Shown: piece by piece, positions 8,925 through 45,146 of the stretch | How the letters are laid out: each line of letters opens with the position of its first letter | Position numbering within the stretch: the stretch's first letter is position 1 | Source of the DNA: an uncultured virus (IMG/VR IMGVR_UViG_3300030117_003229) | Lineage: Duplodnaviria > Heunggongvirae > Uroviricota > Caudoviricetes | Length of the DNA stretch: 64,000 bases | IMG/VR virus record: IMGVR_UViG_3300030117_003229 | Location: 1-64,000 of that record | Direction: 5' to 3' (one strand) | Translations under genes and position numbers: made by a program | Notes under the pieces: generated by a model | What the model saw: only the letters and a program-made list of their open reading frames with translations | What the model was told of the DNA's origin: nothing | Databases searched by the model: none

Positions 8925-9848
8925 TTAAAAGAAATCGATGACACCAGCGTGTCGGTTTTTCATTGGAAACAAATTAGTCAGTAAAAATCTAAGTGCATCG
9001 CAGTGATGGTCAAACTTACCATCCTTTTTAGGTTCGTGGCGCAGCGTTTGATCTTCACGATGCTCTGGATAATGATAATTTTCGTATGATTCGATACTTG
9101 CCTTACACTTAGGATGGATAAAAAAGTGAGGGTCACCATTGGCATCCTCAAACCACCTGCGTACATGCGATACTCCAGACACTACATTTCTGGTTACTGC
9201 ATCGCGTTTTATCTTGACGTTTAGACCATGTTGCTTAAAAACGGCTATATCACTAATTCCTGACTGCAAATTTGTGCCAGATCCTGCTGGATCGCCCCAT
9301 ATACCAGTAAATTCGTAGCCAAGTGAGTTAATTTTACGTGCAAACTCCTCTGTACGCGTGTTTTGCAGGTTGACTTCGTCAATTTGGTGTATTTCAGCGA
9401 AGTTTTTCTCACGCTTATGCAACTGCACGATATTCGCTGCGCTGTGACGATAGCCAAAATCTATACCCATATATACAGGCTTCGATGGATCGTAGGTTAC
9501 ATCCTCGCGTATCTGCTTTTCTCTATCTAGTGGATACACCTTGCCCTGGTATGACTGAAACTCGCAAAGAAACTCCTGCCTATAGGTTTCTTTTGTGAGT
9601 GTGCGTTTCAGTTCTTCTACGTCATCTTTAAAATATGGGGATAGCGTAGATGGAAATCGCCATGATTCCCAGTCAGGAAACTCAGGATTCTTGCCAAAAT
9701 CTTTGTAGAGCTTGTGCAGGTAGTTGAATCCACGCGGTGTACTAATAAATAAACACCAACCTTGTCGATCTGCTAGTGTAGGTCTTAAATACATCTCGTA
9801 TGTGTTACGTGGGATAAGTGCTGCTTCATCTATTATTAAATAATCAAT
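8925..9848 (-). CDS. terL: Terminase large subunit, C-terminal part (Walker B plus nuclease)
   Basis: Frame open upstream of the annotated ATG: IDYLIIDEAA (Walker B), ISTPRG, GIDFG, DHHCDALR. Confidence 0.9.
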   Translation of the reverse strand: MDYLIIDEAALIPRNTYEMYLRPTLADRQGWCLFISTPRGFNYLHKLYKDFGKNPEFPDWESWRFPSTLSPYFKDDVEELKRTLTKETYRQEFLCEFQSYQGKVYPLDREKQIREDVTYDPSKPVYMGIDFGYRHSAANIVQLHKREKNFAEIHQIDEVNLQNTRTEEFARKINSLGYEFTGIWGDPAGSGTNLQSGISDIAVFKQHGLNVKIKRDAVTRNVVSGVSHVRRWFEDANGDPHFFIHPKCKASIESYENYHYPEHREDQTLRHEPKKDGKFDHHCDALRFLLTNLFPMKNRHAGVIDFF

Positions 9849-9877
9849 GCCTAAAAATACCGACCTTTCGGTCAGCC
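9849..9877 (-). other. Putative translational bypass element in terL (GGC take-off, UGA, GAAA hairpin, GGC landing)
   Basis: Minus strand GGC TGACCGAAAGGTCGGTATTTTTA GGC ATT GAT; removing 26 nt restores SLIGDG-IDYLIIDE. Confidence 0.75.
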
Positions 9878-10261
9878 ATCTCCTATCAAACTATCGACTG
9901 CGTCAGCCGATTTTACAACTATTTCACTATTTAAGCCTGCGAGCTTCATATAGTATAAATCGCCAGAAATCTCTTTCTTGCTTTCTAATGGCAGTTTTAG
10001 TTCTGTCATTACAATACGCTTTACCTCACGTGCAATCTTATTTGCCAGTGAGTAGTTTGGTCCTACAATCCAACCACGTGTGTTGGGTGTGAGCAGCCAA
10101 GGCATGATCTCATGCGCTGCCATGTAGGATTTCCCACTGCGGCGGCCCATTAAACAGACGCGATACCTAGCTTTACTGTTATGAACGGCCAACTGCTGTG
10201 GAGTCGGTTGGTATCCCAAAATCCTCCATAGCTTTTGCTTGTTCAGTATTGACTTTATCAA
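9872..10261 (-). CDS. terL: Terminase large subunit, N-terminal part (Walker A)
   Basis: PTPQQ, GRRSGKS Walker A, WIVGPNY; ends SLIGDG-stop. Confidence 0.9.
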   Translation of the reverse strand: MIKSILNKQKLWRILGYQPTPQQLAVHNSKARYRVCLMGRRSGKSYMAAHEIMPWLLTPNTRGWIVGPNYSLANKIAREVKRIVMTELKLPLESKKEISGDLYYMKLAGLNSEIVVKSADAVDSLIGDG

Positions 10262-10586
10262 TCGGATTATCCTCGAAACCGCACTCTTTTAGCACTGTTT
10301 CTAAATTACCTGTCATGTCTACAGCAGTTTTATCTGTCATGCCAAGATAATTCTTGGCCATGAAGATTTGCATAGCAATTGAGTTGTTTTCCATTGCGCT
10401 AACCCACATGGATCTGCGCAGTTTGAACTTCATCTCTTCTTTACCAGCTTCTACCTTCGCTTTGAAGTGTTTGCGTATTGTACCTTCGGACACTTCAAAG
10501 TATTTGCCGATTTCGATGTAGTTGCAGCCAAAACTAGCAAGCATTTTTACCTTTTCAGGATCTATTTTCTTTGTTTTCTTATCCAT
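10179..10586 (-). CDS. terS: Terminase small subunit
   Basis: N-terminal HTH, MQIFMAKNYLGM motif, upstream of terL. Confidence 0.75.
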   Translation of the reverse strand: MDKKTKKIDPEKVKMLASFGCNYIEIGKYFEVSEGTIRKHFKAKVEAGKEEMKFKLRRSMWVSAMENNSIAMQIFMAKNYLGMTDKTAVDMTGNLETVLKECGFEDNPIDKVNTEQAKAMEDFGIPTDSTAVGRS

Positions 10587-10911
10587 CTTCCTTATTAGAG
10601 CTTTCGATGACAGCTTTTATTTTAATTAACGTCCTGCGCCAGTATTCTTTGACTGAGGACTCGGTTATCTCCATTTCCTGCGCAATATCTACAAATGCAT
10701 GGCCACGAATACGTTCTTTAAACACTCGTAACTCCTGTGGAGACATACGATCGTAGAACTGGTGCGCTGCGAGTTGCAGGTGGCGCAGGGATGGTTCGAT
10801 CAAACCACTTCGGAAAACTAGAATCATTGTGTGGTAGCGATCTGCGCGGTCGATAGCATGAAGCCACTTGTCAGTGTTGTCATCTGTTAGGTTACTCCAG
10901 ACTTCTTCCAT
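10579..10911 (-). CDS. Sigma-70 region 4-like HTH regulator (possible late activator)
   Basis: MSPQELRVF...FVDIAQEMEITESSVKEY. Confidence 0.65.
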   Translation of the reverse strand: MEEVWSNLTDDNTDKWLHAIDRADRYHTMILVFRSGLIEPSLRHLQLAAHQFYDRMSPQELRVFKERIRGHAFVDIAQEMEITESSVKEYWRRTLIKIKAVIESSNKEDG

Positions 10912-11009
10912 AGTAGAATTTACGCAGGGGTGTTGACAAAAACGAAGAGGAAAATTTTAAGACGCGGTAAGTGGCATTTTGGGTGGTTTGCCTTGGTGTA
11001 TCCGATCCT

Positions 11010-11037
11010 ATTATACATAATATATATTATGCGCAAT
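11010..11037 (-). other. dif-like XerC/XerD site 1
   Basis: Minus strand ATTGCGCATAA-TATATA-TTATGTATAAT vs E. coli dif GGTGCGCATAA-TGTATA-TTATGTTAAAT. Confidence 0.85.
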
Positions 11038-11156
11038 ACTAAGTGTTGATATTGTTAGACTTAGCATTTTACAATTTATTAGTTTGACTATTTGACATTG
11101 TGCGCCGCTTTTCTTTTTGTTTTTGCTTTGACTCAATATTTTTATTTAAGTAAGTG

Positions 11157-11185
11157 TTGACACATTATATATATATAGCTATATT
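11157..11185 (+). promoter_or_regulatory. Sigma-70 promoter of the early cassette
   Basis: TTGACA-17 nt-TATATT. Confidence 0.8.
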
Positions 11186-11240
11186 TTAGCGCGGAATGAG
11201 AGCCGCAAGAGAGTAATTAAAACAAAAGAGAGAGGTTAAA

Positions 11241-11528
11241 ATGGATCGATTAAGAGCATTTAAAATCAAACTATTACCAGCAACTAACACCAAAGGAACA
11301 CGTATTAAAATAATTGATACGTTTTTTAATGGCCGCACTAAAGATAAAGCAACCGCCGTTGTTTTATCATATGATTATCAATATAATCATTTGTTAGATC
11401 AAGCAATTAATCACTTAAAAAAAGTATGTAATATAAATATAGTTTCATGTTCATATAATACTAAAGATAATGCTTTTATATTATTAACAAACGATTTTGA
11501 AACTGAATTAACAAAAGAGAGAGGTTAA
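11241..11528 (+). CDS. Early hypothetical protein
   Basis: AAAGAGAGAGG RBS; PATNTKGTRIK motif typical of small phage early proteins. Confidence 0.65.
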   Translation: MDRLRAFKIKLLPATNTKGTRIKIIDTFFNGRTKDKATAVVLSYDYQYNHLLDQAINHLKKVCNINIVSCSYNTKDNAFILLTNDFETELTKERG

Positions 11529-11531
11529 AAA

Positions 11532-11717
11532 ATGAGTGATGATTTAATTATAGCGGTTAAACACTATTTAAAAGAAGTTGATAGACAAAGTCCAATTGTG
11601 CCAACTTCACATAACACACTAATTAAACTAGTGAGAATTTTTGGCGCAAAAGACATACGCGCTGAAATTAACAGGCAACTATATAAAGAGAAAAGAGAGA
11701 GGTTAAACAATGAGTAA
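11532..11717 (+). CDS. Early hypothetical protein
   Basis: Same RBS repeat; part of the operon. Confidence 0.55.
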   Translation: MSDDLIIAVKHYLKEVDRQSPIVPTSHNTLIKLVRIFGAKDIRAEINRQLYKEKRERLNNE

Positions 11718-12291
11718 TTACTTAACAAACACAAACAGCAAAATAAAAAAGACCGCTAAATTAAACGGCGTGCGCTTGTATGAGTTTAATTTGCCAGCGG
11801 TTTCATGCTGTCCATTTGCGGATATATGCAAGGAATATTGTTACGCTGATAAAGGCACGTTTAAATATCCTAATGTACAGGCAAAATATAATTCTAATTA
11901 TGAATTAACAAAAAACACTGAATTATTTATTGAATCAATCCAAAGTGAGTTAATAGAAAAGCGTGTTGAGTTTGTGCGCATCCATTCGAGCGGCGATTTT
12001 TACAGCCTTAAATATTTGCGTTCCTGGTTAACCATTGCAAAAAATAATCCTAATATTATTTTTTATGGATATACCAAAAGCGTACCATTTTTTAAATCTG
12101 TAACACCGCCGCCAAATTTTATCTTTTGTTTTTCTACTGGTGGGAAAATGGACCACCTAATAAAAGACACTGATAAACGCGCGGTAATATTTGATACTAA
12201 AGAGGATCTAAAAAAAGCGCGGTATATTGATTGCAGCGTAAATGATATGAAAATGATCGCAACGAATAAAATAGGACTTATTAAGCACTAA
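11710..12291 (+). CDS. Phage Gp88-like Cys-rich (radical SAM-related) protein
   Basis: FNLPA..CP....C..YCYA, RIHSSGDF, YGYTKS motifs. Confidence 0.7.
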   Translation: MSNYLTNTNSKIKKTAKLNGVRLYEFNLPAVSCCPFADICKEYCYADKGTFKYPNVQAKYNSNYELTKNTELFIESIQSELIEKRVEFVRIHSSGDFYSLKYLRSWLTIAKNNPNIIFYGYTKSVPFFKSVTPPPNFIFCFSTGGKMDHLIKDTDKRAVIFDTKEDLKKARYIDCSVNDMKMIATNKIGLIKH

Positions 12292-12341
12292 CTGAAGAAG
12301 GCAGAAGGCCAGAAACAGCGCATTTTTTGCGCTGTCTTAGT
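12287..12341 (+). ncRNA. Hammerhead ribozyme type I (variant, A-A at base of stem II), predicted cleavage after 12336
   Basis: Stem I ACTAA/TTAGT, CTGAAGA, stem II GGC/GCC, GAAA, stem III CAGCGCA/TGCGCTG, GUC. Confidence 0.8.
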
Positions 12342-12364
12342 CAAACAAATAAAAAGGAAAAACA

Positions 12365-12640
12365 ATGTATAACACTTTTAAAAACTGGTTAAATGAAAAT
12401 ACTCAACTTTCAAATAAATCAATTAGTAATTACGGCGGCGCGTTAAATAAAATTACACGCGATTTAATTACTGAAAAAATGATCGTTGAAAGTTTAGAAG
12501 AAATTAAAACAGCGGACCAAGTAAAAGAAACTAAAAAGAAATATTTCGCGATTGATAAATATAAAAAGCAAGATCATAAAGCTAAAAATATGTATCATGC
12601 TGGATTCAATAAATATATACTTTTTAGAGAATCTAATTAA
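12365..12640 (+). CDS. Hypothetical helical protein
   Basis: AAGGA RBS; FKNWL...LS..S..NY..AL...NMY motif. Confidence 0.6.
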   Translation: MYNTFKNWLNENTQLSNKSISNYGGALNKITRDLITEKMIVESLEEIKTADQVKETKKKYFAIDKYKKQDHKAKNMYHAGFNKYILFRESN

Positions 12641-12666
12641 TTAAACAAAAAAAGAGAGTAATAACA

Positions 12667-12954
12667 ATGATAAAACCAAAAACAAAAGCACAAAAAAAAC
12701 AAGATCAAACTAAACTAGACCAAGCCGCGCATAAATGCGCTAAAGCAATAAATAGCTTTGTTACTGAGTTATATGAAGGTGAATTCAGGCTTGATTGGAT
12801 TTACTTTAGCACAATTAATAAAATGCAGGAATCCGATAATAAATATCAATACGCTAAAAAAACTCAGAAGGAAGAATTTACATTTACTAGCTATGAAGAA
12901 GATAAGGATCATAAAGAATGGAATAATTCAACGCATATAGATAAATATAAATAA
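12667..12954 (+). CDS. Early hypothetical protein
   Basis: AAGAGAG RBS; ORF ends just before hammerhead 2. Confidence 0.6.
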   Translation: MIKPKTKAQKKQDQTKLDQAAHKCAKAINSFVTELYEGEFRLDWIYFSTINKMQESDNKYQYAKKTQKEEFTFTSYEEDKDHKEWNNSTHIDKYK

Positions 12955-12955
12955 A

Positions 12956-13027
12956 TCCATACTGAAGAGCGCGATTAATTACCGCGCGAAATATCGCCGT
13001 TTTTGCGGCGGTATCTATGGAAATTAA
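12956..13027 (+). ncRNA. Hammerhead ribozyme type I (canonical core), predicted cleavage after 13015
   Basis: Stem I TCCATA/TATGGA, CTGAAGA, stem II GCGCG/CGCGC, GAAA, stem III TATCGCCG/CGGCGGTA, AUC; loop II TTAATT can pair with AATTAA at 13022-13027. Confidence 0.92.
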
Positions 13028-13042
13028 AAAAGAGGTTTAAAC

Positions 13043-13129
13043 ATGCTTAAAACACTCGAAAAAATAGCGCATATATACTTATCAATATGCGTTTTAGTAT
13101 GGATATTACAACTATGTTTGAGTGGTTAA
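13043..13129 (+). CDS. Tiny hydrophobic peptide (28 aa)
   Basis: AAGAGG RBS; MLKTLEKIAHIYLSICVLVWILQLCLSG. Confidence 0.45.
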   Translation: MLKTLEKIAHIYLSICVLVWILQLCLSG

Positions 13130-13192
13130 TATGGTTTATTTTGGCGTTGATTTTGTATTTTAGCGCATCGGAATAAATACACAACACTAAAC

Positions 13193-13226
13193 AAAAAAAG
13201 CCGCGTTTTAAACGCGGTTTTTTTTT
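13193..13226. terminator. Bidirectional rho-independent terminator
   Basis: A7-GCCGCGTTTTAAACGCGG-T9 between convergent operons. Confidence 0.85.
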
Positions 13227-13366
13227 ACCTATACATACCAAGCCGCACAAATAAAACGCGCGTTTTTGCGCAAATTAAACACTAAAAATAAAAGATCTTT
13301 TGATCATTGCAGCCGTTTCAAATATTAGTTTGAATTCTACTTGTGTTTTTTCGTGTTTTAAATCCT

Positions 13367-13394
13367 ATTATACATAATCTTTTTTATGCACATA
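13367..13394 (-). other. dif-like XerC/XerD site 2 (direct repeat of site 1)
   Basis: Minus strand TATGTGCATAA-AAAAGA-TTATGTATAAT; ATCCTATTATACATAAT identical to site 1. Confidence 0.75.
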
Positions 13395-13505
13395 CTTTTT
13401 TTGAATTGATTTTTTTTCATTTTTGATCGATTTTTGCACACTTAATAAGGCATATTTGTGCTAATTATATTATACTGCTAGGGTTATTATATTATATGGC
13501 CAAGG

Positions 13506-13712
13506 TTATTTTTGTTTTTTAATTTGCCTGTTGCGCCATGACAACTTGGCGCGATTCTTAATTTTCAAAAAACACTTATCCAACTGGCTAACTCTAGTAT
13601 CATGCCACCACTCCAAAACCAGCGCACAATGAGTCTCGCCACGTATGTTTTGAGCAAACTCGCAGTAATTCTCTTTCTTATCCGAAAGTACGCACTTTTC
13701 AGGGTAAATCAT
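13506..13712 (-). CDS. Cys-containing hypothetical protein
   Basis: 68-aa ORF after the replication gene. Confidence 0.45.
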   Translation of the reverse strand: MIYPEKCVLSDKKENYCEFAQNIRGETHCALVLEWWHDTRVSQLDKCFLKIKNRAKLSWRNRQIKKQK

Positions 13713-13721
13713 CGATAGGCA

Positions 13722-13845
13722 GAATATGAAGACTATGAAGAATATGAAGACTTTCTCTCTCTCTCTTCTCGATAAACCAAATCACGCAAAGTCTTTTTTT
13801 ATTTTGCCAAAAGACTTTCAAAGTCTTCAAAGTCTTCAAAGTCTT
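13722..13845. repeat. Iteron-like repeats, putative replication origin
   Basis: GAATATGAAGACT x2 and CAAAGTCTT x4 (three in tandem); AAGACT core in both orientations, next to the primase-helicase gene. Confidence 0.6.
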
Positions 13846-13863
13846 TGTTTTCTTTGTGTCGAG

Positions 13864-15714
13864 TTAATCAAGAAAATCATCTAATTCAGTAGTTACTTTA
13901 CAGTAATGACCATGATCAAGTTTACGAATTAAGCCTTGATTTTCCATTCTTGAAAGCCAATTATATAAAGCTGTTTTACTGCTCAACTTCATCACACTTT
14001 CCAGCGCAACAGCAAACGCAGAGGTACTAAAATTATGACCATCTGTCATAACCGCAGCAAGCACGCGTTCTTCATTCGACTCTTTCGGATCGCTATACCA
14101 ATACATCTCATTTTTAGGAAGTGGCTTCATATATTTAAAATACAATTCACGCCGATCTTCTTCATCAATATTAATCATCTTAATACCAACTGGTACATTA
14201 TGCAACTCGTTATGACTGCGCACCTTCGTTATCTTCATTACCTTTAATCCAGGAACACGCCTAGCATCGGCCATTTGGACCAAACAATCCAAGAAGTTAG
14301 AATACGCAGATCCACCTAATAGCTGCGATACATCGAGTGGAGTCATCTCACCGATCTTCTTATGATGCGACACCAACACAATAGCAACCTTATGTCTTTT
14401 CTTAATATTCACGATCTTACGCAGCAATTCCATTATATCTGAGTTCTTAGACATCGACAACTGCGTACTGGTATACAAGTTATCCACCACCAGCACATCA
14501 TATTCTTCATGCACTAAATTAGCATCAATTATATCCCATTTATCCTGAAACAGATTCGACTGCCCATCACCAGTAAAGCGCAGGTTCTTATCCAAATTCT
14601 CTGACTCAATCGGATATTGATCCATCAACGGCTTACCTACATTCTTAATTAAGCCACTAAAACTCTCATCCTTCAACTCAAACTGCACATGCAACACACG
14701 CTGCGCAGTAGGAATCCGATAGTTCATAAACGGCACACCCATAGCAAGGCACATCGACAACTGCAAACTAAACACCGACTTACCCACATTCGTACCACCT
14801 GCGATACCCATAATGTCACCATCATAAAACAACGACTCAATGATCGGTCTAGGCAACTGGTTGAATGTGGTCCGAAACTGCGACATACTAAACGACTGCA
14901 TACCACCCAGATCCACCGCACTTTCACCATACCTATTGCACAAACTAAGCAGGTTTTCCAGCGTATTACCATCACTAAACCAGTCAGTTATATCATAGCC
15001 TAAAGGTTTATTTTTCCAATCAACGGCATACAACTCCAATTCCTTAGAAAACAGCCGTTTTGCTACCTTTTTCGAGCCTTCTATACCTTTTTCATCGTTA
15101 TCGTATATGATATATAGTTTATTATATCCTGTAGGCAAGGTTAATTCAGCAGGCAGCGCACCTGCACCAGACGTAAACGTAATCGCAGGTGCGCCTTGGC
15201 AGTATGCGGTGACTACATCTTTTTCACCTTCGCACAATATAAGATAGTTTTTGAGAAGTTGCGGAGTCCCAAACATCTTACACTGCGCATCACCGAACTG
15301 CTTTCCTTTATGATGCTTTACATGATTATCATTGATTTGAAATACTAACTGTGGCTTACCATCATCATTCTTTCGCACACCTACAGGCATTTTAAGACAT
15401 TGATCATTCCAAGGCAAGTCCATAGCCTTTACAAATTTTTCCCATCCATTTATAAATGCATTCCGCGCATCTGCGTAGCCACCTTTGTCGACAGATACAA
15501 CAGCCTTAGTATTACTTAATACGTATTCTTCTCTCTTTTGTATTTTCTCATCTTCATCAAATTGCCATGTTTTTTGACACTTATGGCAATGAGCATAATC
15601 CTCATTAATAGTTACTGTACCTTGAGGACGATTAGAGCCTAGATCACACTCAGGACACCAAGCTCTGTTACCATTACGAGATATGCGAGTAAATACATCC
15701 TGTGGGCGAATCAC
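13864..15714 (-). CDS. Primase-helicase (Zn finger + TOPRIM + RepA/AAA_25 helicase)
   Basis: CPEC...CHKC; LCEGEKD...YDND; GGTNVGKS; LVVD; VSHHKK. Confidence 0.85.
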   Translation of the reverse strand: MIRPQDVFTRISRNGNRAWCPECDLGSNRPQGTVTINEDYAHCHKCQKTWQFDEDEKIQKREEYVLSNTKAVVSVDKGGYADARNAFINGWEKFVKAMDLPWNDQCLKMPVGVRKNDDGKPQLVFQINDNHVKHHKGKQFGDAQCKMFGTPQLLKNYLILCEGEKDVVTAYCQGAPAITFTSGAGALPAELTLPTGYNKLYIIYDNDEKGIEGSKKVAKRLFSKELELYAVDWKNKPLGYDITDWFSDGNTLENLLSLCNRYGESAVDLGGMQSFSMSQFRTTFNQLPRPIIESLFYDGDIMGIAGGTNVGKSVFSLQLSMCLAMGVPFMNYRIPTAQRVLHVQFELKDESFSGLIKNVGKPLMDQYPIESENLDKNLRFTGDGQSNLFQDKWDIIDANLVHEEYDVLVVDNLYTSTQLSMSKNSDIMELLRKIVNIKKRHKVAIVLVSHHKKIGEMTPLDVSQLLGGSAYSNFLDCLVQMADARRVPGLKVMKITKVRSHNELHNVPVGIKMINIDEEDRRELYFKYMKPLPKNEMYWYSDPKESNEERVLAAVMTDGHNFSTSAFAVALESVMKLSSKTALYNWLSRMENQGLIRKLDHGHYCKVTTELDDFLD

Positions 15715-20422: not shown

Positions 20423-20611
20423 CTAATAAGGCCATTTAATAAAATCCATCTTAATGCCAAGTACACGCGCAATGCGGACCTTATGTTCATGTCTAAATTT
20501 TCTTTTGCCATTCATCATTAATGATAACATGGACTTATCGAGTGCAATATGTTTAGCTAATTGGTTTTGTGAAAAACCACACTCTCTCATATGTTGTTTT
20601 AATTCTTTCAT
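20423..20611 (-). CDS. XRE/Cro-like HTH repressor
   Basis: SQNQLAKHIALDKSMLSLMMNGKR...IARVLG. Confidence 0.85.
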   Translation of the reverse strand: MKELKQHMRECGFSQNQLAKHIALDKSMLSLMMNGKRKFRHEHKVRIARVLGIKMDFIKWPY

Positions 20612-32340: not shown

Positions 32341-32364
32341 TATCTAGTTTTTCTATTACTTTGT

Positions 32365-32658
32365 TCATAGCACCATCCACCATGCGATACCAGTTTCTAC
32401 CACTATATCAGCCATCGTATTGTATGCCCACGCTTTTTTTGTGCCATAGGTTTCTTCGTCACCTTCAATAAACCATTCAAAGATTTCCCATAATACACCG
32501 ATTATGAATACACCCATAACACACCAAAAATCTGACCAACTTAACCATTGGAATATTTTGCATAAAAACGCACCTGCTGCTAAATGGTACGCAGTCCATC
32601 CATCAAGCTGTCCTGTGCGGTATTGCCAAGACACTAAAGTTGCTAATGGATTTTTCAT
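32365..32658 (-). CDS. Membrane protein
   Basis: D.WT..H...LWEIFE...N...DI pattern, several TM segments. Confidence 0.6.
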   Translation of the reverse strand: MKNPLATLVSWQYRTGQLDGWTAYHLAAGAFLCKIFQWLSWSDFWCVMGVFIIGVLWEIFEWFIEGDEETYGTKKAWAYNTMADIVVETGIAWWMVL

Positions 32659-32948
32659 CTATCTTGTACCTTATTATTTACAATTTTATGTTTAACAATG
32701 TCGATGCGCCCATGAGAATCACAACCTTTATCTTTACATGCTTGTACGTAAGCAGTTTCTATCGTAGCAAATGAATCGGATCTTTGAGTTATCTCACCAT
32801 CCACTAATAGAAAATAATCTTTCGCAGCAGATGGATAGGTCAAAGATTTCTTTGTGCCATCAGCCATAGCAATCGTCTTTACCATTCCTGGCTTAGTATT
32901 CTTATGTATCACTACATCAAAATCTTGGGCGCATCGTCTAACAATCAT
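32655..32948 (-). CDS. Hypothetical protein
   Basis: Coupled ORF. Confidence 0.5.
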   Translation of the reverse strand: MIVRRCAQDFDVVIHKNTKPGMVKTIAMADGTKKSLTYPSAAKDYFLLVDGEITQRSDSFATIETAYVQACKDKGCDSHGRIDIVKHKIVNNKVQDR

Positions 32949-33235
32949 TAGTCGTTTTCATCCCCAGGATCATGTGGTGAGTGATCATTATTAAGCATTT
33001 CTTTCAGTTCTTTAACACCTTTTTGATGTTTGTCCACAAATACTTTTTCACATTCAACTAATTGCTGTCTCATAAAAGCGTTTGTAGATAGTTTATTTTG
33101 AACATCTGCTACATGATTTTGATACATAGCAACTTCACCTGCTTTTTCTTTTTGTAAATCAGTCATATCCTCGATAACATAATCTTTGCCATCAAGATTC
33201 AAGACTGGCTTTTTTTCTTTTTCTTTTTTAGCCAT
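32948..33235 (-). CDS. Coiled-coil hypothetical protein
   Basis: AAGGAG RBS; LDGKDY.IEDMTD motif common next to fibre genes. Confidence 0.55.
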   Translation of the reverse strand: MAKKEKEKKPVLNLDGKDYVIEDMTDLQKEKAGEVAMYQNHVADVQNKLSTNAFMRQQLVECEKVFVDKHQKGVKELKEMLNNDHSPHDPGDEND

Positions 33236-43572: not shown

Positions 43573-43888
43573 CTATTACCATTACTTGTATAGGTTCTGA
43601 TTTAGTTACTCTTTCTTGCCTGTCTAATGCTTTACCCTCCAACCTTTCTACAATAAACTGTATAGCCCTTAGATCACCTCTTTCTGCTAACTGAAATAGC
43701 TTAGACACTACTACTTCCCTTCTTTCTTTTTCACCCTTCTTAGTAAAGCTAAATTCTTTTATTAGATCAGTATAGGCATTTCTTCTACCATTAGGGTTTC
43801 CAGACTGTCCTTTCTTCCATCTATATTCTTTACCAATCTCATTACCCTTTTGGAACTGACTCCCCTTGTTTTCCCCTTGTTTAGTCAT
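43562..43888 (-). CDS. Terminase small subunit-like protein (DUF5681 motif)
   Basis: WKKGQSGNPNGR; GDLRAI..I.ERLEGK. Confidence 0.65.
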   Translation of the reverse strand: MTKQGENKGSQFQKGNEIGKEYRWKKGQSGNPNGRRNAYTDLIKEFSFTKKGEKERREVVVSKLFQLAERGDLRAIQFIVERLEGKALDRQERVTKSEPIQVMVIDDG

Positions 43889-44060
43889 ACTCTACCAATG
43901 CCATTACATAAGCCTTATTTAACTTATCTATTAGTTCTTTTACTTTGTGAGTGTCTATCTCAAACACATCAAACTCCAGCCTGTAATTGCCTGTAGTCTT
44001 TAAGTTTCTTATGCCTACTAGCTCAGTAGTAAGCACAATACCTTTATCTTCTTTTGACAA
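43881..44060 (-). CDS. Hypothetical protein (59 aa, TTG start)
   Basis: Open frame filling the gap, overlapping both neighbours. Confidence 0.45.
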   Translation of the reverse strand: MSKEDKGIVLTTELVGIRNLKTTGNYRLEFDVFEIDTHKVKELIDKLNKAYVMALVEYD

Positions 44061-44133
44061 TTTTTCTAGTCTTTTTCTTTTTCATTCCTTTAGATTTCTT
44101 CTTTTTCTTTTGTCCACCATAATGATAAGGCAT
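44044..44133 (-). CDS. 29-aa Lys-rich micro-protein (MPYHYG family)
   Basis: AAGGAG RBS; homolog of 30419..30505. Confidence 0.65.
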   Translation of the reverse strand: MPYHYGGQKKKKKSKGMKKKKTRKIVKRR

Positions 44134-44288
44134 ATTAGTCTCCTTGTTTTTTATGCTTTATAATTTAGATAAATGTTTATATAAAGTAAAATACTGATTA
44201 AACCCTTATTTGTATCTTTTTGGGTCTGAATAGTATACTACAGTATGTTGTTATTTTTTTTAGAGCATACTCCAGTAGGCTATGAAAC

Positions 44289-44320
44289 AAAAAAGCCCCA
44301 TAAAAATGAGGCTTCTTTTT
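44289..44320 (-). terminator. Rho-independent terminator
   Basis: AAGCC/GGCTT stem with flanking A/T tracts. Confidence 0.55.
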
Positions 44321-44336
44321 AGTGATTTAAAGTTTG

Positions 44337-44582
44337 TTATTGTTTTATATACTTTAAAACATAACTTTCAAAAACATCTCTTAATCTTCCACTCATCCAT
44401 CCATATTTGATATGATCTTCCATTATTTTGCAATCTAAATCAAGAACATTTCTATGTAATTTTATTAAATGTTCTCTTCTTTTGATGTTTTTAATATTAT
44501 TTATTTTATTTTTAACTTTATCTGTATCTGATAAATACTTCTTTTCTTTTTTAATTTTAGCTTCATGTTCTTTTGTTATCAT
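44337..44582 (-). CDS. Hypothetical protein
   Basis: GGAG RBS. Confidence 0.5.
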   Translation of the reverse strand: MITKEHEAKIKKEKKYLSDTDKVKNKINNIKNIKRREHLIKLHRNVLDLDCKIMEDHIKYGWMSGRLRDVFESYVLKYIKQ

Positions 44583-44662
44583 GTTTTAACTCCATTTTTG
44601 TTTAAATATTCTTTATACCCAAAAAGCCCCATTTAAGGGGCTGATTGGTTTCTTTTTGTTAG

Positions 44663-45146
44663 TTAGTTAAATACACCCTTTTCTAATCTATATTCATAGG
44701 GTCTGCTATTCTGTAATGGAACTTCCTCATAATTTTCACCATCTTTATCCCAAACCTGAACTAAAACCTCAACATTATGACTATTATTCATATTAGCAAG
44801 AATCCTCCAAGCACCATCACAATTTCTAATAGAAAGTATTTCAGACTCAACATCATATTTTGTATTAGTATATTCTAAGACTATTGAACTAGATATAACA
44901 TTAGGTGTTGTTTTAATTAAGATTTTATCACCACTATGAACAAGATCACATAATCTATATTCATTTGTTTCATCTATCTTTGCAAATCTTTCTTTTAAAG
45001 TGTCCCTGCTTCTTCTTTCTAATTCCATTTCAGCAATTTCATGATGAACAGTTTTAAAAATTTCATCTTCACTTGCACCTGATAAAACAGTTTCCCATGT
45101 CATAGGAAAACTTTGTAAAAGCTCATACTTTTTTGTTTCAACCATG
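44663..45146 (-). CDS. Hypothetical protein (start probably MVETKK)
   Basis: AAGGAG RBS before ATG 45146; own promoter and a downstream hairpin. Confidence 0.55.

What the first reader, a model, noticed from the sequence alone, without database searches (positions are those of the whole stretch)
11010..13394. Early-gene cassette bracketed by two directly repeated dif-like (XerC/D) sites
Seen: two 28-bp 11-6-11 sites have identical XerD-like arms (TTATGTATAAT, plus shared flank AGGAT), XerC-like arms ATTGCGCATAA and TATGTGCATAA, and different spacers (TATATA vs AAAAGA). They enclose exactly the only plus-strand unit: promoter, 5-7 ORFs, two ribozymes and a terminator. No integrase is visible in the phage. 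Established: host XerCD acts on dif and is exploited by IMEX phages and pdif modules; direct repeats are the geometry of integration/excision products. Inference: either a Xer-exchangeable ~2.36-kb module or satellite inside a tailed phage, or a tailed phage using host Xer for integration or multimer resolution with a two-site attP.
Basis: partly seen in the sequence, partly recalled or inferred. Interest (0 to 1): 0.88.

Follow-up and report, generated by a model that had tools for sequence, protein, structure and literature searches.

The report
Host dif look-alikes in tailed phage
A small marine tailed phage with no integrase carries two copies of the short DNA site that bacteria use to untangle their chromosomes, one of them letter-for-letter identical to that site in uncultured ocean bacteria, which suggests the phage borrows the host's own recombination enzymes.

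Summary
Two 28-bp 11-6-11 sites (11010-11037, 13367-13394; direct repeat, 2357 bp apart) flank the only opposite-strand gene unit. Site 1 is 28 of 28 identical to a single-copy site at the GC-skew switch of Fidelibacterota (Marinimicrobia/SAR406) chromosomes, so it is a true dif mimic.

Site 1 sits 127-128 bp upstream of the late operon in every relative that covers the place (more than 100 viral and metagenome contigs). Conservation peaks on the 28-bp core. No tyrosine recombinase was found in 10 of 10 whole records, and no serine recombinase in 5 of 5.

Site 2 is clear in 17 of 31 relatives, degenerate in 8 and gone in 6. Its spacer always differs from that of site 1.

The cassette is a gene-by-gene mosaic built around a GP88 gene and hammerhead-like ribozymes. 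Homology between relatives breaks exactly at the outer edge of site 2, but not at site 1.

Seventeen other viral contigs, with tailed-phage genes where annotated, carry the same kind of site, some as arrays of 2-4 direct copies.

No integrated form, excised circle or empty site was found.

Best reading: host XerC/D substrates, most likely an IMEX-like attachment site in a tailed phage. The function of the pair is unsettled. The 64.9-kb record is two ~32-kb phage genomes joined.

The parts
11010..11037 (-). Site 1. On the minus strand it reads ATTGCGCATAA (XerC-like arm) TATATA TTATGTATAAT (XerD-like arm). It lies 99 bp from the start codon of the sigma-like gene; from the first base of the site the distance is 127-128 bp in all relatives.
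   Evidence: 28 of 28 identical to L060 and L091 (Fidelibacterota/Neomarinimicrobiota). Present in all relatives covering the place. Mean information 1.70 / 1.45 / 1.94 bits for XerC arm / spacer / XerD arm, against 0.75-0.81 in the flanks.
13367..13394 (-). Site 2. On the minus strand it reads TATGTGCATAA AAAAGA TTATGTATAAT. The XerD-like arm is the same as in site 1; the XerC-like arm is degenerate and the spacer different. It is in direct repeat with site 1.
   Evidence: Clear in 17 of 31 relatives that reach the primase gene, degenerate or weak in 8, not found in 6. Information 1.35 / 1.07 / 1.88 bits against 0.73-0.86 in the flanks. Homology between relatives ends at its last base.
11046..11185 (+). 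Promoter region of the cassette: TTGATA-18-TACAAT (11046-11075) and TTGACA-17-TATATT (11157-11185). It is conserved in relatives at backbone-like identity.
11241..11528 (+). ORF of 95 aa with no known family. Cassette family F1, present in 7 of 18 cassettes.
11532..11717 (+). ORF of 61 aa with no known family.
11710..12291 (+). GP88-family protein (193 aa, Cys-rich N-terminal part). The one gene common to nearly all cassettes.
   Evidence: Pfam PF17338, E 2.8e-38. GP88 found in 16 of 18 relatives' cassettes. PHROG 1392, unknown function. No PDB relative. Model of low confidence, no clear fold match.
12284..12346 (+). Hammerhead-like ribozyme 1 (CUGAAGA ... GAAA ... UC, three helices).
   Evidence: Fold -18 kcal/mol, z -2.3. 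Motif script. Not called by Rfam.
12365..12640 (+). ORF of 91 aa. Weak sub-threshold match to Phage_int_SAM_1. A singleton among the cassettes.
   Evidence: E 0.0065, below the cut-off.
12667..12954 (+). ORF of 95 aa with no known family. Cassette family F7, present in 4 cassettes.
12955..13021 (+). Hammerhead-like ribozyme 2.
   Evidence: RAGATH-1-hammerhead, 33.8 bits against a gathering score of 56.3, E 0.0035. Fold -26.5 kcal/mol, z -4.0. Motif script.
13043..13129 (+). Hydrophobic ORF of 28 aa, read by eye from the sequence.
   Evidence: no family.
13199..13228 (.). Bidirectional terminator hairpin (A-run, GC stem, T-run).
   Evidence: minus-strand call 13217-13201; leader-like alignments show the + strand hairpin with its T-run.
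13257..13272 (-). Second minus-strand terminator-like hairpin, just inside site 2.
10579..10911 (-). First gene of the late (packaging and structural) operon: a 110-aa GerE/LuxR-type HTH, like sigma-factor region 4.
   Evidence: Pfam GerE, 2.7e-5; PHROG 1190 sigma factor, 4.7e-5.
13506..15714 (-). End of the replication operon: primase-helicase (13864-15714; Toprim + AAA_25) and a 68-aa ORF (13506-13712).

Best explanation
Both sites are mimics of the host chromosome's dimer-resolution site dif, and they are bound and recombined by the host's XerC/XerD. The phage has no recombinase of its own.

Site 1 is the primary, strongly selected site. Its arms, and in part its spacer, follow the dif variants of Fidelibacterota (Marinimicrobia/SAR406), which are therefore the likely hosts. 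Its most likely use is as an attP: the circular phage genome recombines with host dif, giving IMEX-type lysogeny in a tailed phage. Most relatives' spacers differ from the common host spacer by one base on the XerD side. This resembles VGJphi, where only XerC exchanges strands.

Site 2 is a second, heterospecific dif-like site: same XerD arm, weak XerC arm, different spacer. It marks the far border of the divergently transcribed accessory cassette (GP88, small ORFs, hammerheads). It probably arose when two elements or sites lying in tandem at a dif site were excised together. It is kept in some lineages and decays in others.

The cassette's contents change mainly by ordinary recombination between short conserved linkers and ribozyme copies, not by Xer swapping of the whole unit.

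Shown: sequence identity to host dif, conservation, absence of a recombinase, and the break of homology at site 2. Inferred: XerCD action, integration, and the origin of site 2.
For: (1) Identity to real dif.
- The site-1 pattern has 62 hits in 596 Gb. Of these, 14 are named Marinimicrobia, Neomarinimicrobiota or Fidelibacterota, 13 Wenzhouxiangella, and 6 PS1, OCS116 or related alphaproteobacteria.
- L060 and L091 are 28 of 28 identical to site 1.
- GC skew flips at the site in L061 and L060.
- There is one perfect copy in each of 5 genomes.
- XerD-family genes are present in 4 of those 5 genomes.
- ATAA-N6-TTATGTATAAY is found in 138 of 401 genomes of that phylum, mostly once per genome.

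(2) Selection on the core. Site 1 is at a fixed place in all relatives that cover it: 20 of 23 loci (the other 3 are cut), 53 viral contigs and 59 metagenome loci. Information content peaks on the arms.

(3) Phage and host vary together. Of 38 distinct phage site-1 versions, 2 are identical to a sampled host dif, 8 differ by one base and 15 by two. The unusual arm GCATATAA with spacer CATACA occurs both in a phage subclade and in host genome G348.

(4) No recombinase. PF00589 is absent from 10 of 10 whole records, including two family genomes with terminal repeats (33,061 and 34,942 bp). PF00239 is absent from 5 of 5.

(5) Homology between relatives ends at the last base of site 2's XerD arm, and all four combinations of flank types exist.

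(6) Generality. Seventeen other viral contigs carry the same kind of site, with tailed-phage genes in those annotated. These include arrays of 2-4 direct copies with different spacers, and an ImmA/IrrE-type protease gene beside the sites in three lineages.

(7) Precedents read in PMC4246890 (passages): VGJphi's single dsDNA attP lacks spacer homology on the XerD side, and hybrid VGJphi-CTXphi genomes form by co-excision of tandem elements.
Against: - No integrated copy was found. No phage protein lies within 6 kb of any of 62 dif loci. Only 4 distant portal relatives turned up in 401 genomes of the phylum, none beside a dif-like site. There were 0 of 25 in the PS1/OCS116 order, and no phage homologues in 16 further host regions.
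- All 56 metagenome loci with enough sequence on the XerC side carry the cassette there, not host DNA.
- Only 3 of 14 phage site-1 spacers occur among the sampled host spacers.
- No repressor/immunity module typical of temperate phages was identified in this family, apart from a 67-76-aa HTH_3 protein.
- Site 1 contains a perfect TATAAT and lies at a fixed distance from the late operon, so a role in transcription cannot be excluded.
- The host assignment rests on the site alone. PS1/OCS116 alphaproteobacteria carry a 27 of 28 match.
- Nothing here shows binding or catalysis.
Confidence: 0.55

Rival explanations
1. Multimer resolution or episome maintenance. The phage persists or replicates as a circle, and host XerCD acts on site 1 (and/or site 2, which looks like a plasmid site such as cer or psi with its weak XerC arm) to turn dimers into monomers. 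There is no chromosomal integration.
For: - No integrated form was seen.
- Site 2 has a degenerate XerC arm, an A-tract-rich XerC-side flank and nearby 22-nt tandem repeats. This resembles plasmid sites with accessory sequences; that comparison is recalled, except that the abstract shown in the listing (bioRxiv 10.64898/2026.02.23.706985) says Xer acts on directly repeated psi sites with accessory proteins.
- Most phage spacers are not those of the sampled hosts.
Against: - No partition or plasmid-replication genes were recognised by Pfam.
- Two direct sites on one circle are not needed for resolution.
- Arm-plus-spacer co-variation with host dif is not required for phage-by-phage recombination.
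- A tailed phage needs concatemers, not monomers, for packaging (general knowledge).
Confidence: 0.2
2. Xer-bounded mobile module. The cassette itself is the mobile thing, either a mini-IMEX or satellite, or a cassette exchanged between co-infecting phages by double recombination at two heterospecific sites. This would work like pdif modules, or like recombinase-mediated cassette exchange with unlike lox sites.
For: - Sites are conserved while the content varies.
- Within every genome examined the two spacers differ.
- Homology ends exactly at site 2, with all four flank combinations present.
- 11 pairs of relatives have >=85% identity on the backbone side of site 2 but <65% on the cassette side.
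Against: - At site 1 the cassette-side 150-200 nt follow the backbone (r = 0.78). There are no pairs with a like cassette side and an unlike backbone.
- Genes are shuffled one by one.
- Joints in metagenome contigs lie inside the cassette, between the two ribozyme regions, not at the sites.
- The cassette persists where site 2 has decayed.
- No circle or empty site was found.
- No cassette lies next to host dif.
- pdif modules are flanked by inverted, not direct, sites (recalled).
Confidence: 0.12
3. Regulatory palindromes only. The sites are a promoter or operator bound by a phage or host regulator, for instance the adjacent GerE/sigma-like protein. The likeness to dif would then be convergence.
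For: - Site 1 lies at a fixed 127-128 bp from the late operon.
- A perfect TATAAT lies in the XerD arm.
- Both sites sit at borders of transcription units.
Against: - 28 of 28 identity with chromosomal dif, and the same arm variants as in hosts.
- The promoter scan does not call the sites; the TTGCGC-15-TATAAT spacing is off.
- The same sites occur in tailed phages other than this family, at other gene contexts and as arrays.
Confidence: 0.06
4. XerD decoy. The invariant XerD arms, single or in arrays, serve to recruit or titrate XerD and not to recombine. They might, for instance, interfere with host chromosome handling or with SMC-type complexes. This is modelled on XerD-binding sites that unload SMC in Bacillus (recalled).
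For: - The XerD arm is nearly invariant (1.88-1.94 bits), while XerC arms decay in site 2 and in the arrays.
- Arrays of up to four sites lie 2 nt apart.
Against: - Site 1 keeps a full XerC arm and the 6-bp spacing in all relatives.
- There is no evidence of any such mechanism in these hosts.
Confidence: 0.04

Closest known systems
IMEX phages: VGJphi, CTXphi and TLCphi of Vibrio; dif-type double-jelly-roll and PM2-like prophages
   Same: They have no integrase. They carry a 28-29-bp dif-like attP with XerC and XerD arms. As in VGJphi, the spacer is unlike dif next to the XerD arm. (Passages of PMC4246890; PMC12715192; bioRxiv 10.64898/2026.02.19.706829.)
   Different: All those described in the passages read are non-tailed (filamentous, DJR, corticovirus-like) and were found integrated at dif. 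Here the carrier is a ~32-35-kb tailed phage with a tape-measure protein and tail tube. It has two direct sites 1.6-2.8 kb apart, and no integrated copy has been seen. No XafT-like gene was recognised.
Hybrid VGJphi-CTXphi genomes (co-excised tandem IMEXs)
   Same: A composite circle holds two directly repeated Xer sites that bracket a captured element (PMC4246890, passage).
   Different: That is a rare product in Vibrio. Here the composite form is fixed across a whole phage family, and the bracketed part carries no known replication or structural genes.
pdif (dif) modules of Acinetobacter plasmids
   Same: Small gene modules are bounded by XerC/D-type sites, with varied content between conserved sites (abstracts in the listing).
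   Different: pdif modules are flanked by sites in inverted orientation and recur unchanged in different plasmids (recalled). Here the sites are direct, and the content is a gene-by-gene mosaic.
Plasmid multimer-resolution sites cer and psi
   Same: Xer core sites with a weakened XerC arm and their own spacer, acting on direct repeats (abstract in the listing; sequences recalled). Site 2 resembles these.
   Different: Accessory sequences and proteins are not identified here. Site 1 is a full dif copy, not a weakened site.
Heterospecific lox/FRT pairs used for cassette exchange
   Same: Two sites share arms but have unlike spacers, so they cannot recombine with each other, and they flank a replaceable segment (recalled).
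   Different: That is an engineered system. No evidence here shows that both sites are active.

Membership tests
XerC/XerD recombination site (dif type) | 28 bp: two 11-bp arms in imperfect inverted repeat around a 6-bp central region | tested here: met
   for both sites and all relatives.
XerC/XerD recombination site (dif type) | Arms match those of a chromosomal dif: single copy, at the terminus, in a genome that encodes XerC/D | tested here: met
   Site 1 is 28 of 28 identical to L060 and L091. Single copy. Skew switch at the site. XerD-family genes present. For site 2 only the XerD arm and the inner ATAA match.
XerC/XerD recombination site (dif type) | Bound and recombined by XerC and XerD | not testable with these tools
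   Needs EMSA and recombination assays.
[quoted passage not shown] | No recombinase of its own | tested here: met
   Pfam on 72 ORFs. PF00589 found in 0 of 10 whole records and PF00239 in 0 of 5.
[quoted passage not shown] | Found integrated at host dif, flanked by dif-like attL and attR | tested here: not met
   Not found in 62 dif loci, 401 + 25 genomes searched with the portal protein, 16 further host regions, or 59 metagenome loci. The samples are MAGs and short contigs, so absence is weak evidence.
[quoted passage not shown] | Integration depends on XerC/XerD | not testable with these tools
   Needs genetics or an in vitro reaction.
pdif module | Module flanked by two Xer sites in inverted orientation | tested here: not met
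   The sites are direct repeats in the window and in all relatives.
pdif module | The same module recurs in different backbones | tested here: inconclusive
   Flank types recombine across site 2, but gene content is a mosaic and the site-1 side follows the backbone.
Hammerhead ribozyme | Conserved core (CUGANGA, GAAA, UH) in a three-helix junction | tested here: met
Hammerhead ribozyme | Score at or above Rfam's gathering threshold | tested here: not met
   0 matches at gathering in the window and in 12 relatives. The best hit is 33.8 bits against a cut-off of 56.3.

The most novel reading that the evidence does not exclude
Several lineages of integrase-less tailed phages of uncultured marine Fidelibacterota are Xer-dependent integrative elements. 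They carry one to four directly repeated dif mimics with unlike central regions. The array would act as a multi-specificity attachment site, with each copy fitted to the dif of a different host species. Where two copies are separated, as in this window, it would also act as a natural cassette-exchange system run entirely by host XerC/D, with the early accessory operon as the exchangeable piece.
Probability: 0.25. Interest if true: 0.9.

Novelty: new variant of a known kind. Interest (0 to 1): 0.8.

Why it matters
Use of host XerC/D by mobile elements is known for filamentous and other non-tailed phages, islands and plasmids. In the passages and listings seen here, no tailed phage was described as doing so.

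If this family does use Xer, several things follow:
- Tailed phages can be temperate without an integrase, so 'no integrase' would stop being a safe sign of a lytic lifestyle in viromes.
- The dif mimic gives a direct, sequence-based host link to SAR406/Marinimicrobia, an abundant group that is not grown in culture.
- The pairs and arrays of unlike sites would be a new layout of Xer sites, whose logic (several hosts, stability of integration, or cassette exchange) can be tested with simple plasmid assays.

Tried and rejected
- Phage databases: blastn of 10000-14500 and tblastn of the portal against 50,697 GenBank phage records found no match.
- Earlier notes of this scan: none.
- Sequencing runs: 20 marine or seawater metagenome runs from 11 studies hold part of the stretch, with no RNA holder listed. 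Four runs were laid, all as Logan contigs. There was no joint from site 1 to site 2. Contigs cannot show rare forms, so this says little.
- 'Empty site' pattern (site-2 left flank + site + site-1 right flank) in viral contigs: 0 hits. The pattern is narrow.
- 91-aa cassette ORF as a Xer helper: its match to the integrase N-terminal SAM-like domain is below the cut-off and it is a singleton among the cassettes. Idea dropped.
- GP88 function: no PDB sequence relative. The AlphaFold model has mean pLDDT 59 from a 10-sequence alignment. Foldseek gave no match with E <= 0.001, only weak beta/alpha-barrel-like rows. The Atlas returned only GP88 clusters. Function remains unknown.
- RAGATH/hammerhead gene association: PMC5737381 passages held nothing relevant.
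- Second hits of the XerD-arm pattern in host genomes (spacers CAGACT, TCTCAT, GGTGAA): these are not dif-like and have no phage genes nearby.
- A P22-like portal relative (30% identity) of another dif-bearing phage lies in the chromosome of G189 at 217 kb, far from its dif at 1.83 Mb. It is not a Xer-type insertion.
- A group of six contigs holds the exact 17-mer directly before an ATG (L006, L008, L009, L012, L022, L026). This is not dif-like and was not followed up.
- Supplementary files of the papers were not opened.


Full report
WHAT IS IN THE WINDOW

The window is nearly all of a 64,902-bp IMG/VR virus record. It is not one phage.

An all-against-all comparison of its ORFs shows two syntenic gene sets, at about 1-32.3 kb and 32.3-64 kb. 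Each has its own capsid, portal, terminase, tape measure and so on, and the pairs are 21-97% identical. The last 686 bases of the record are 75% identical to 32348-33041. The record ends on a 75-nt exact repeat of 32967-33041. Relatives of the first half are contigs of 31-35 kb, two of them with terminal repeats. I read the record as a figure-of-eight assembly of two related ~32-kb phages.

The finding lies in the first phage, whose other genes are all on the minus strand. From right to left this phage holds:
- a replication operon, ending with a primase-helicase at 13864-15714 and a 68-aa ORF;
- the + strand cassette;
- the late operon: a GerE/sigma-region-4-like protein at 10579-10911, small terminase, a large terminase in two ORFs, portal, capsid and tail genes.

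THE OBSERVATION

The two sites are as described. Read on the minus strand:
- site 1 is ATTGCGCATAA-TATATA-TTATGTATAAT (11037 to 11010);
- site 2 is TATGTGCATAA-AAAAGA-TTATGTATAAT (13394 to 13367).

They are direct repeats, 2357 bp apart. The inner palindrome CATAA-N6-TTATG occurs nowhere else in the 64 kb, against 0.26 expected.

Between them lie:
- two promoter-like sites, the better one TTGACA-17-TATATT at 11157-11185;
- five ORFs, of which only the 193-aa one has a family (GP88, PF17338);
- two hammerhead-like elements;
- a 28-aa ORF;
- a bidirectional terminator.

The hammerheads do not reach Rfam's gathering score. They do have the full core and fold as three-way junctions. The same motif is found on the sense strand of 14 of 23 relatives' cassettes, never on the other strand, and never in 20 shuffled sets.

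ARE THE SITES REALLY dif-LIKE?

A scan of one genome per prokaryotic species (596 Gb) for TKCGYATAA-N6-TTATGTATAAY gave 62 loci. By record title:
- 14 are Marinimicrobia, Neomarinimicrobiota or Fidelibacterota;
- 13 are Wenzhouxiangella;
- 6 are PS1, OCS116 or related marine alphaproteobacteria;
- the rest are mostly unnamed MAGs.

In the 52-63% GC Wenzhouxiangella contigs the same sequence, AGTTCGCATAA-TGTATA-TTATGTATAAT (one ends in C), recurs in 13 records, 12 genomes. This is what a chromosomal dif looks like.

Two Fidelibacterota-type records (L060, a 3.4-Mb chromosome, and L091) carry a site identical to site 1 at all 28 positions. Nine more loci match a run of 27 of the 28 positions exactly. 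GC skew changes sign at the site in L061 (a 970-kb chromosome, site at 525 kb) and in L060. The site is single-copy in five genomes tested. Four of those five encode XerD-family recombinases, three of them at 323-352 bits. In a sample of 401 genomes of that phylum, 138 hold ATAA-N6-TTATGTATAAY, mostly once.

So TTATGTATAAT, which differs at two positions from the gammaproteobacterial XerD arm as I recall it, is a genuine XerD-arm variant. Site 1 is a copy of a real dif.

CONSERVATION IN RELATIVES

Three independent routes gave relatives:
- the exact 17-mer;
- the sigma-like protein;
- site 1 plus a conserved downstream word, in viral contigs and in metagenome contigs.

Flanking genes are 59-100% identical in protein, or 67-95% in DNA. 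Site 1 is present in every locus that covers the place, always 127-128 bp from the sigma-like gene.

Across 26 distinct versions, mean information is 1.70 bits (XerC arm), 1.45 (spacer) and 1.94 (XerD arm), against 0.75-0.81 in the 40 nt on either side. For site 2 (20 versions) the values are 1.35, 1.07 and 1.88, against 0.73-0.86.

Site 2 is less constant. Among 31 loci that reach the primase gene:
- 17 have a clear site 2;
- 8 have a degenerate or weak one in the same orientation and place (for example ATTGCGCGTAA-AAAATG-TTATGTATAGT);
- 6 have none that I could recognise.

All keep the cassette. Within every genome the two spacers differ.

PHAGE SITES TRACK HOST SITES

Of 38 distinct site-1 versions, compared with 47 distinct host sites that I held:
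- 2 are identical to a host site;
- 8 differ by one base;
- 15 differ by two.

The XerC-arm variants TATGCGCATAA, ATTGCGTATAA and ATTGCGCATAA occur in both sets. The unusual GCATATAA arm with spacer CATACA occurs in one phage subclade and in host genome G348.

Against this, only 3 of 14 phage spacers (TATATA, CATACA, TTTACA) are among the sampled host spacers. The commonest phage spacers (TATACA, TATCTA, TAAACA) differ from the commonest host spacer TATATA by one or two bases towards the XerD side.

In VGJphi, lack of spacer homology next to the XerD arm is what makes integration a XerC-only reaction completed by replication (PMC4246890, passage). The likeness is suggestive and no more than that.

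NO RECOMBINASE

Pfam found no integrase, resolvase or transposase among 72 ORFs of the window. A six-frame search for PF00589 was empty in 10 of 10 whole records: 5 of this family, all rated complete, and 5 other dif-bearing phages, two of them rated at least 96% complete. PF00239 was empty in 5 of 5.

THE CASSETTE

Eighteen non-redundant cassettes (1.6-2.8 kb) hold about 28 small gene families in changing combinations. GP88 is in 16 of 18, and the other two have a 181-aa Cys-containing ORF that elsewhere sits beside GP88.

Where similarity between relatives breaks:
- Compared with close relatives (95% identical backbone), similarity stops at 11234, the first start codon, and resumes at 13167, before the terminator. 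It does not stop at the sites.
- The 150-230 nt inside site 1, the promoter region, are homologous in all relatives and follow the backbone (r = 0.78). There is only a 25-nt indel next to the XerC arm.
- At site 2 the picture is different. In 11 pairs the backbone flank is at least 85% identical while the cassette flank is below 65%. In an alignment the homology of the window with L046, L036 and L040 ends at the very last base of the XerD arm. All four combinations of two backbone-flank types with two cassette-end types exist.

That is what a crossover in or at site 2 would leave. A crossover in the ~80 nt of shared sequence to its left would leave the same pattern.

Joints seen in metagenome contigs lie inside the cassette, between the two ribozyme regions. 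Repeated 23-25-nt ribosome-binding linkers precede the ORFs. Together these suggest that ordinary recombination at short repeats makes most of the variety.

SEARCH FOR THE PRODUCTS OF RECOMBINATION

None was found:
- No phage protein lies within 6 kb of any of the 62 dif loci.
- The portal finds only 4 distant relatives (24-31% identity) in 401 genomes of the phylum, none next to a dif-like site, and none in 25 genomes of the PS1/OCS116 order.
- Of 59 family loci from the metagenome collection, 56 carry the cassette on the XerC side of site 1. The other 3 have at most 448 nt there.
- No contig joins site 1 to site 2.
- A pattern for an empty site found nothing.

These sources are MAGs, species representatives and short contigs, so absence is weak evidence.

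One hint in the other direction: 11 of the 62 host dif sites lie within 400 nt of a contig end, and so do 6 of 16 regions fetched later. That would be expected if the DNA next to dif differs among cells of a population.

OTHER PHAGES

The site-1 pattern occurs in 17 viral contigs outside this family. Eight of the 13 annotated show phage-type genes within 3 kb of the site: large terminase, T7-type and P22-type portals, SU10-type capsid, tail tape measure, Mu Gam, Rad52 and DnaB. One of them (G406) is a distant relative of both halves of the window, with a single site of spacer TATACA, again next to the packaging genes.

Several hold arrays of direct copies with the same XerD arm but different XerC arms and spacers:
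- two sites 3 nt apart in L262 and L286, and a similar pair in L289;
- two further sites 23 nt apart, after a truncated upstream XerD-arm copy, in L279;
- four within 230 bp in G405.

The spacer TAAAGA of one such copy is the spacer of the dif-like site in host genomes G182 and G333. In three lineages an ImmA/IrrE-type protease gene lies beside the sites; I recall this gene as usual in lysogeny modules.

The window's pair therefore looks like one form of a wider habit: several unlike dif mimics in direct repeat, here with a gene cassette between two of them.

HOW IT MOST LIKELY WORKS

Shown:
- a true dif sequence under strong selection, in a family of integrase-less tailed phages;
- a second, weaker, heterospecific copy at the other border of an accessory cassette;
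- a break of homology at that copy.

Inferred:
- Host XerC/D bind both sites.
- Site 1 recombines with host dif and inserts the circular phage genome, IMEX-like. I put this at about even odds.
- Alternatively it acts between phage copies.
- Site 2 came from co-excision of tandem elements or sites at a dif, as in the VGJphi-CTXphi hybrids (PMC4246890, passage). It is functional in some lineages and decaying in others.

Because the spacers differ, I do not expect efficient site 1 x site 2 excision of the cassette.

COMPARISON WITH WHAT IS KNOWN

The IMEX phages in the passages I read are all non-tailed: PMC12715192, bioRxiv 10.64898/2026.02.19.706829 and PMC4246890. My searches for tailed-phage terms together with IMEX, Xer or dif listed no paper describing a tailed phage of this kind. 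The library is limited to open-access papers and preprints, and I did not open any supplements.

I therefore rate this a new variant of a known kind.

Noticed in passing
window 1-32300 versus 32300-64000; record end 64217-64902 (L177): The record is two syntenic but diverged ~32-kb phage genomes in tandem (21-97% protein identity). The record ends on a 75-nt exact repeat of 32967-33041, which looks like a figure-of-eight assembly. The second genome has no dif-like site and no opposite-strand cassette at the matching place (43850-44720).
   Followed up: partly
window 8925-9794 and 9872-10261 (minus strand): The large terminase is split into two ORFs, an N-terminal ATPase part and a C-terminal nuclease part, with a 77-nt gap. 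Contigs of other runs show small insertions at 9850 and 9861. This could be a frameshift, a programmed shift or an error.
   Followed up: no
window 12284-12346 and 12955-13021; cassettes of L019, L033, L034, L036, L038-L041, L045, L052: Hammerhead-like ribozymes, one or two per cassette, always on the sense strand. They are not called by Rfam at its gathering score. Metagenome contigs show variants that lack the genes between the two ribozyme regions (joints 12288-12359 to 12642-13026), as if the ribozyme copies serve as crossover points.
   Followed up: partly
window 11216-11243, 11505-11532, 11683-11710, 12647-12669: A 23-25-nt linker (AAAAGAGAGAGGTTAAA type, holding the ribosome-binding site) is repeated before four cassette ORFs. 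It is a likely substrate for gene shuffling.
   Followed up: no
window 13464-13507 and 13712-13862: Two 22-nt tandem repeats lie next to site 2. Between the 68-aa ORF and the primase gene there is a 43-nt inverted repeat built of 9-nt TATGAAGAC-like units. This looks like iterons, and may be a replication origin.
   Followed up: no
L338 (G405) 13775-14001; L262/L286 2998-3057; L289; L279/L268: Tailed phages outside this family carry arrays of two to four directly repeated dif-like sites, 2-110 nt apart. The XerD arm is the same in each copy, while the XerC arms and spacers differ.
   Followed up: partly
L062, L064, L068, L071, L080, L089, L093, L102, L105, L112, L114; L314-L319: In MAGs the chromosomal dif often lies within 400 nt of a contig end: 11 of 62 loci, and 6 of 16 regions. 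This fits variable DNA next to dif in these populations.
   Followed up: no
L219 and L233 (one 62,957-nt metagenome contig): A second contig of about twice genome length holds two copies of site 1, about 35 kb apart, with slightly different neighbours. It may be a concatemer or another joined assembly.
   Followed up: no
L006, L008, L009, L012, L022, L026: The exact 17-mer ATCCTATTATACATAAT also occurs in a phage group that does not align with the window's first phage. There it lies directly before an ATG and without a dif-like partner arm. Unexplained.
   Followed up: no
window 20441-20602 (minus strand): A small Xre-type HTH_3 protein (71 aa) is present in all five complete family genomes searched. 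It is the only candidate regulator of a lysis-lysogeny kind that I saw.
   Followed up: no
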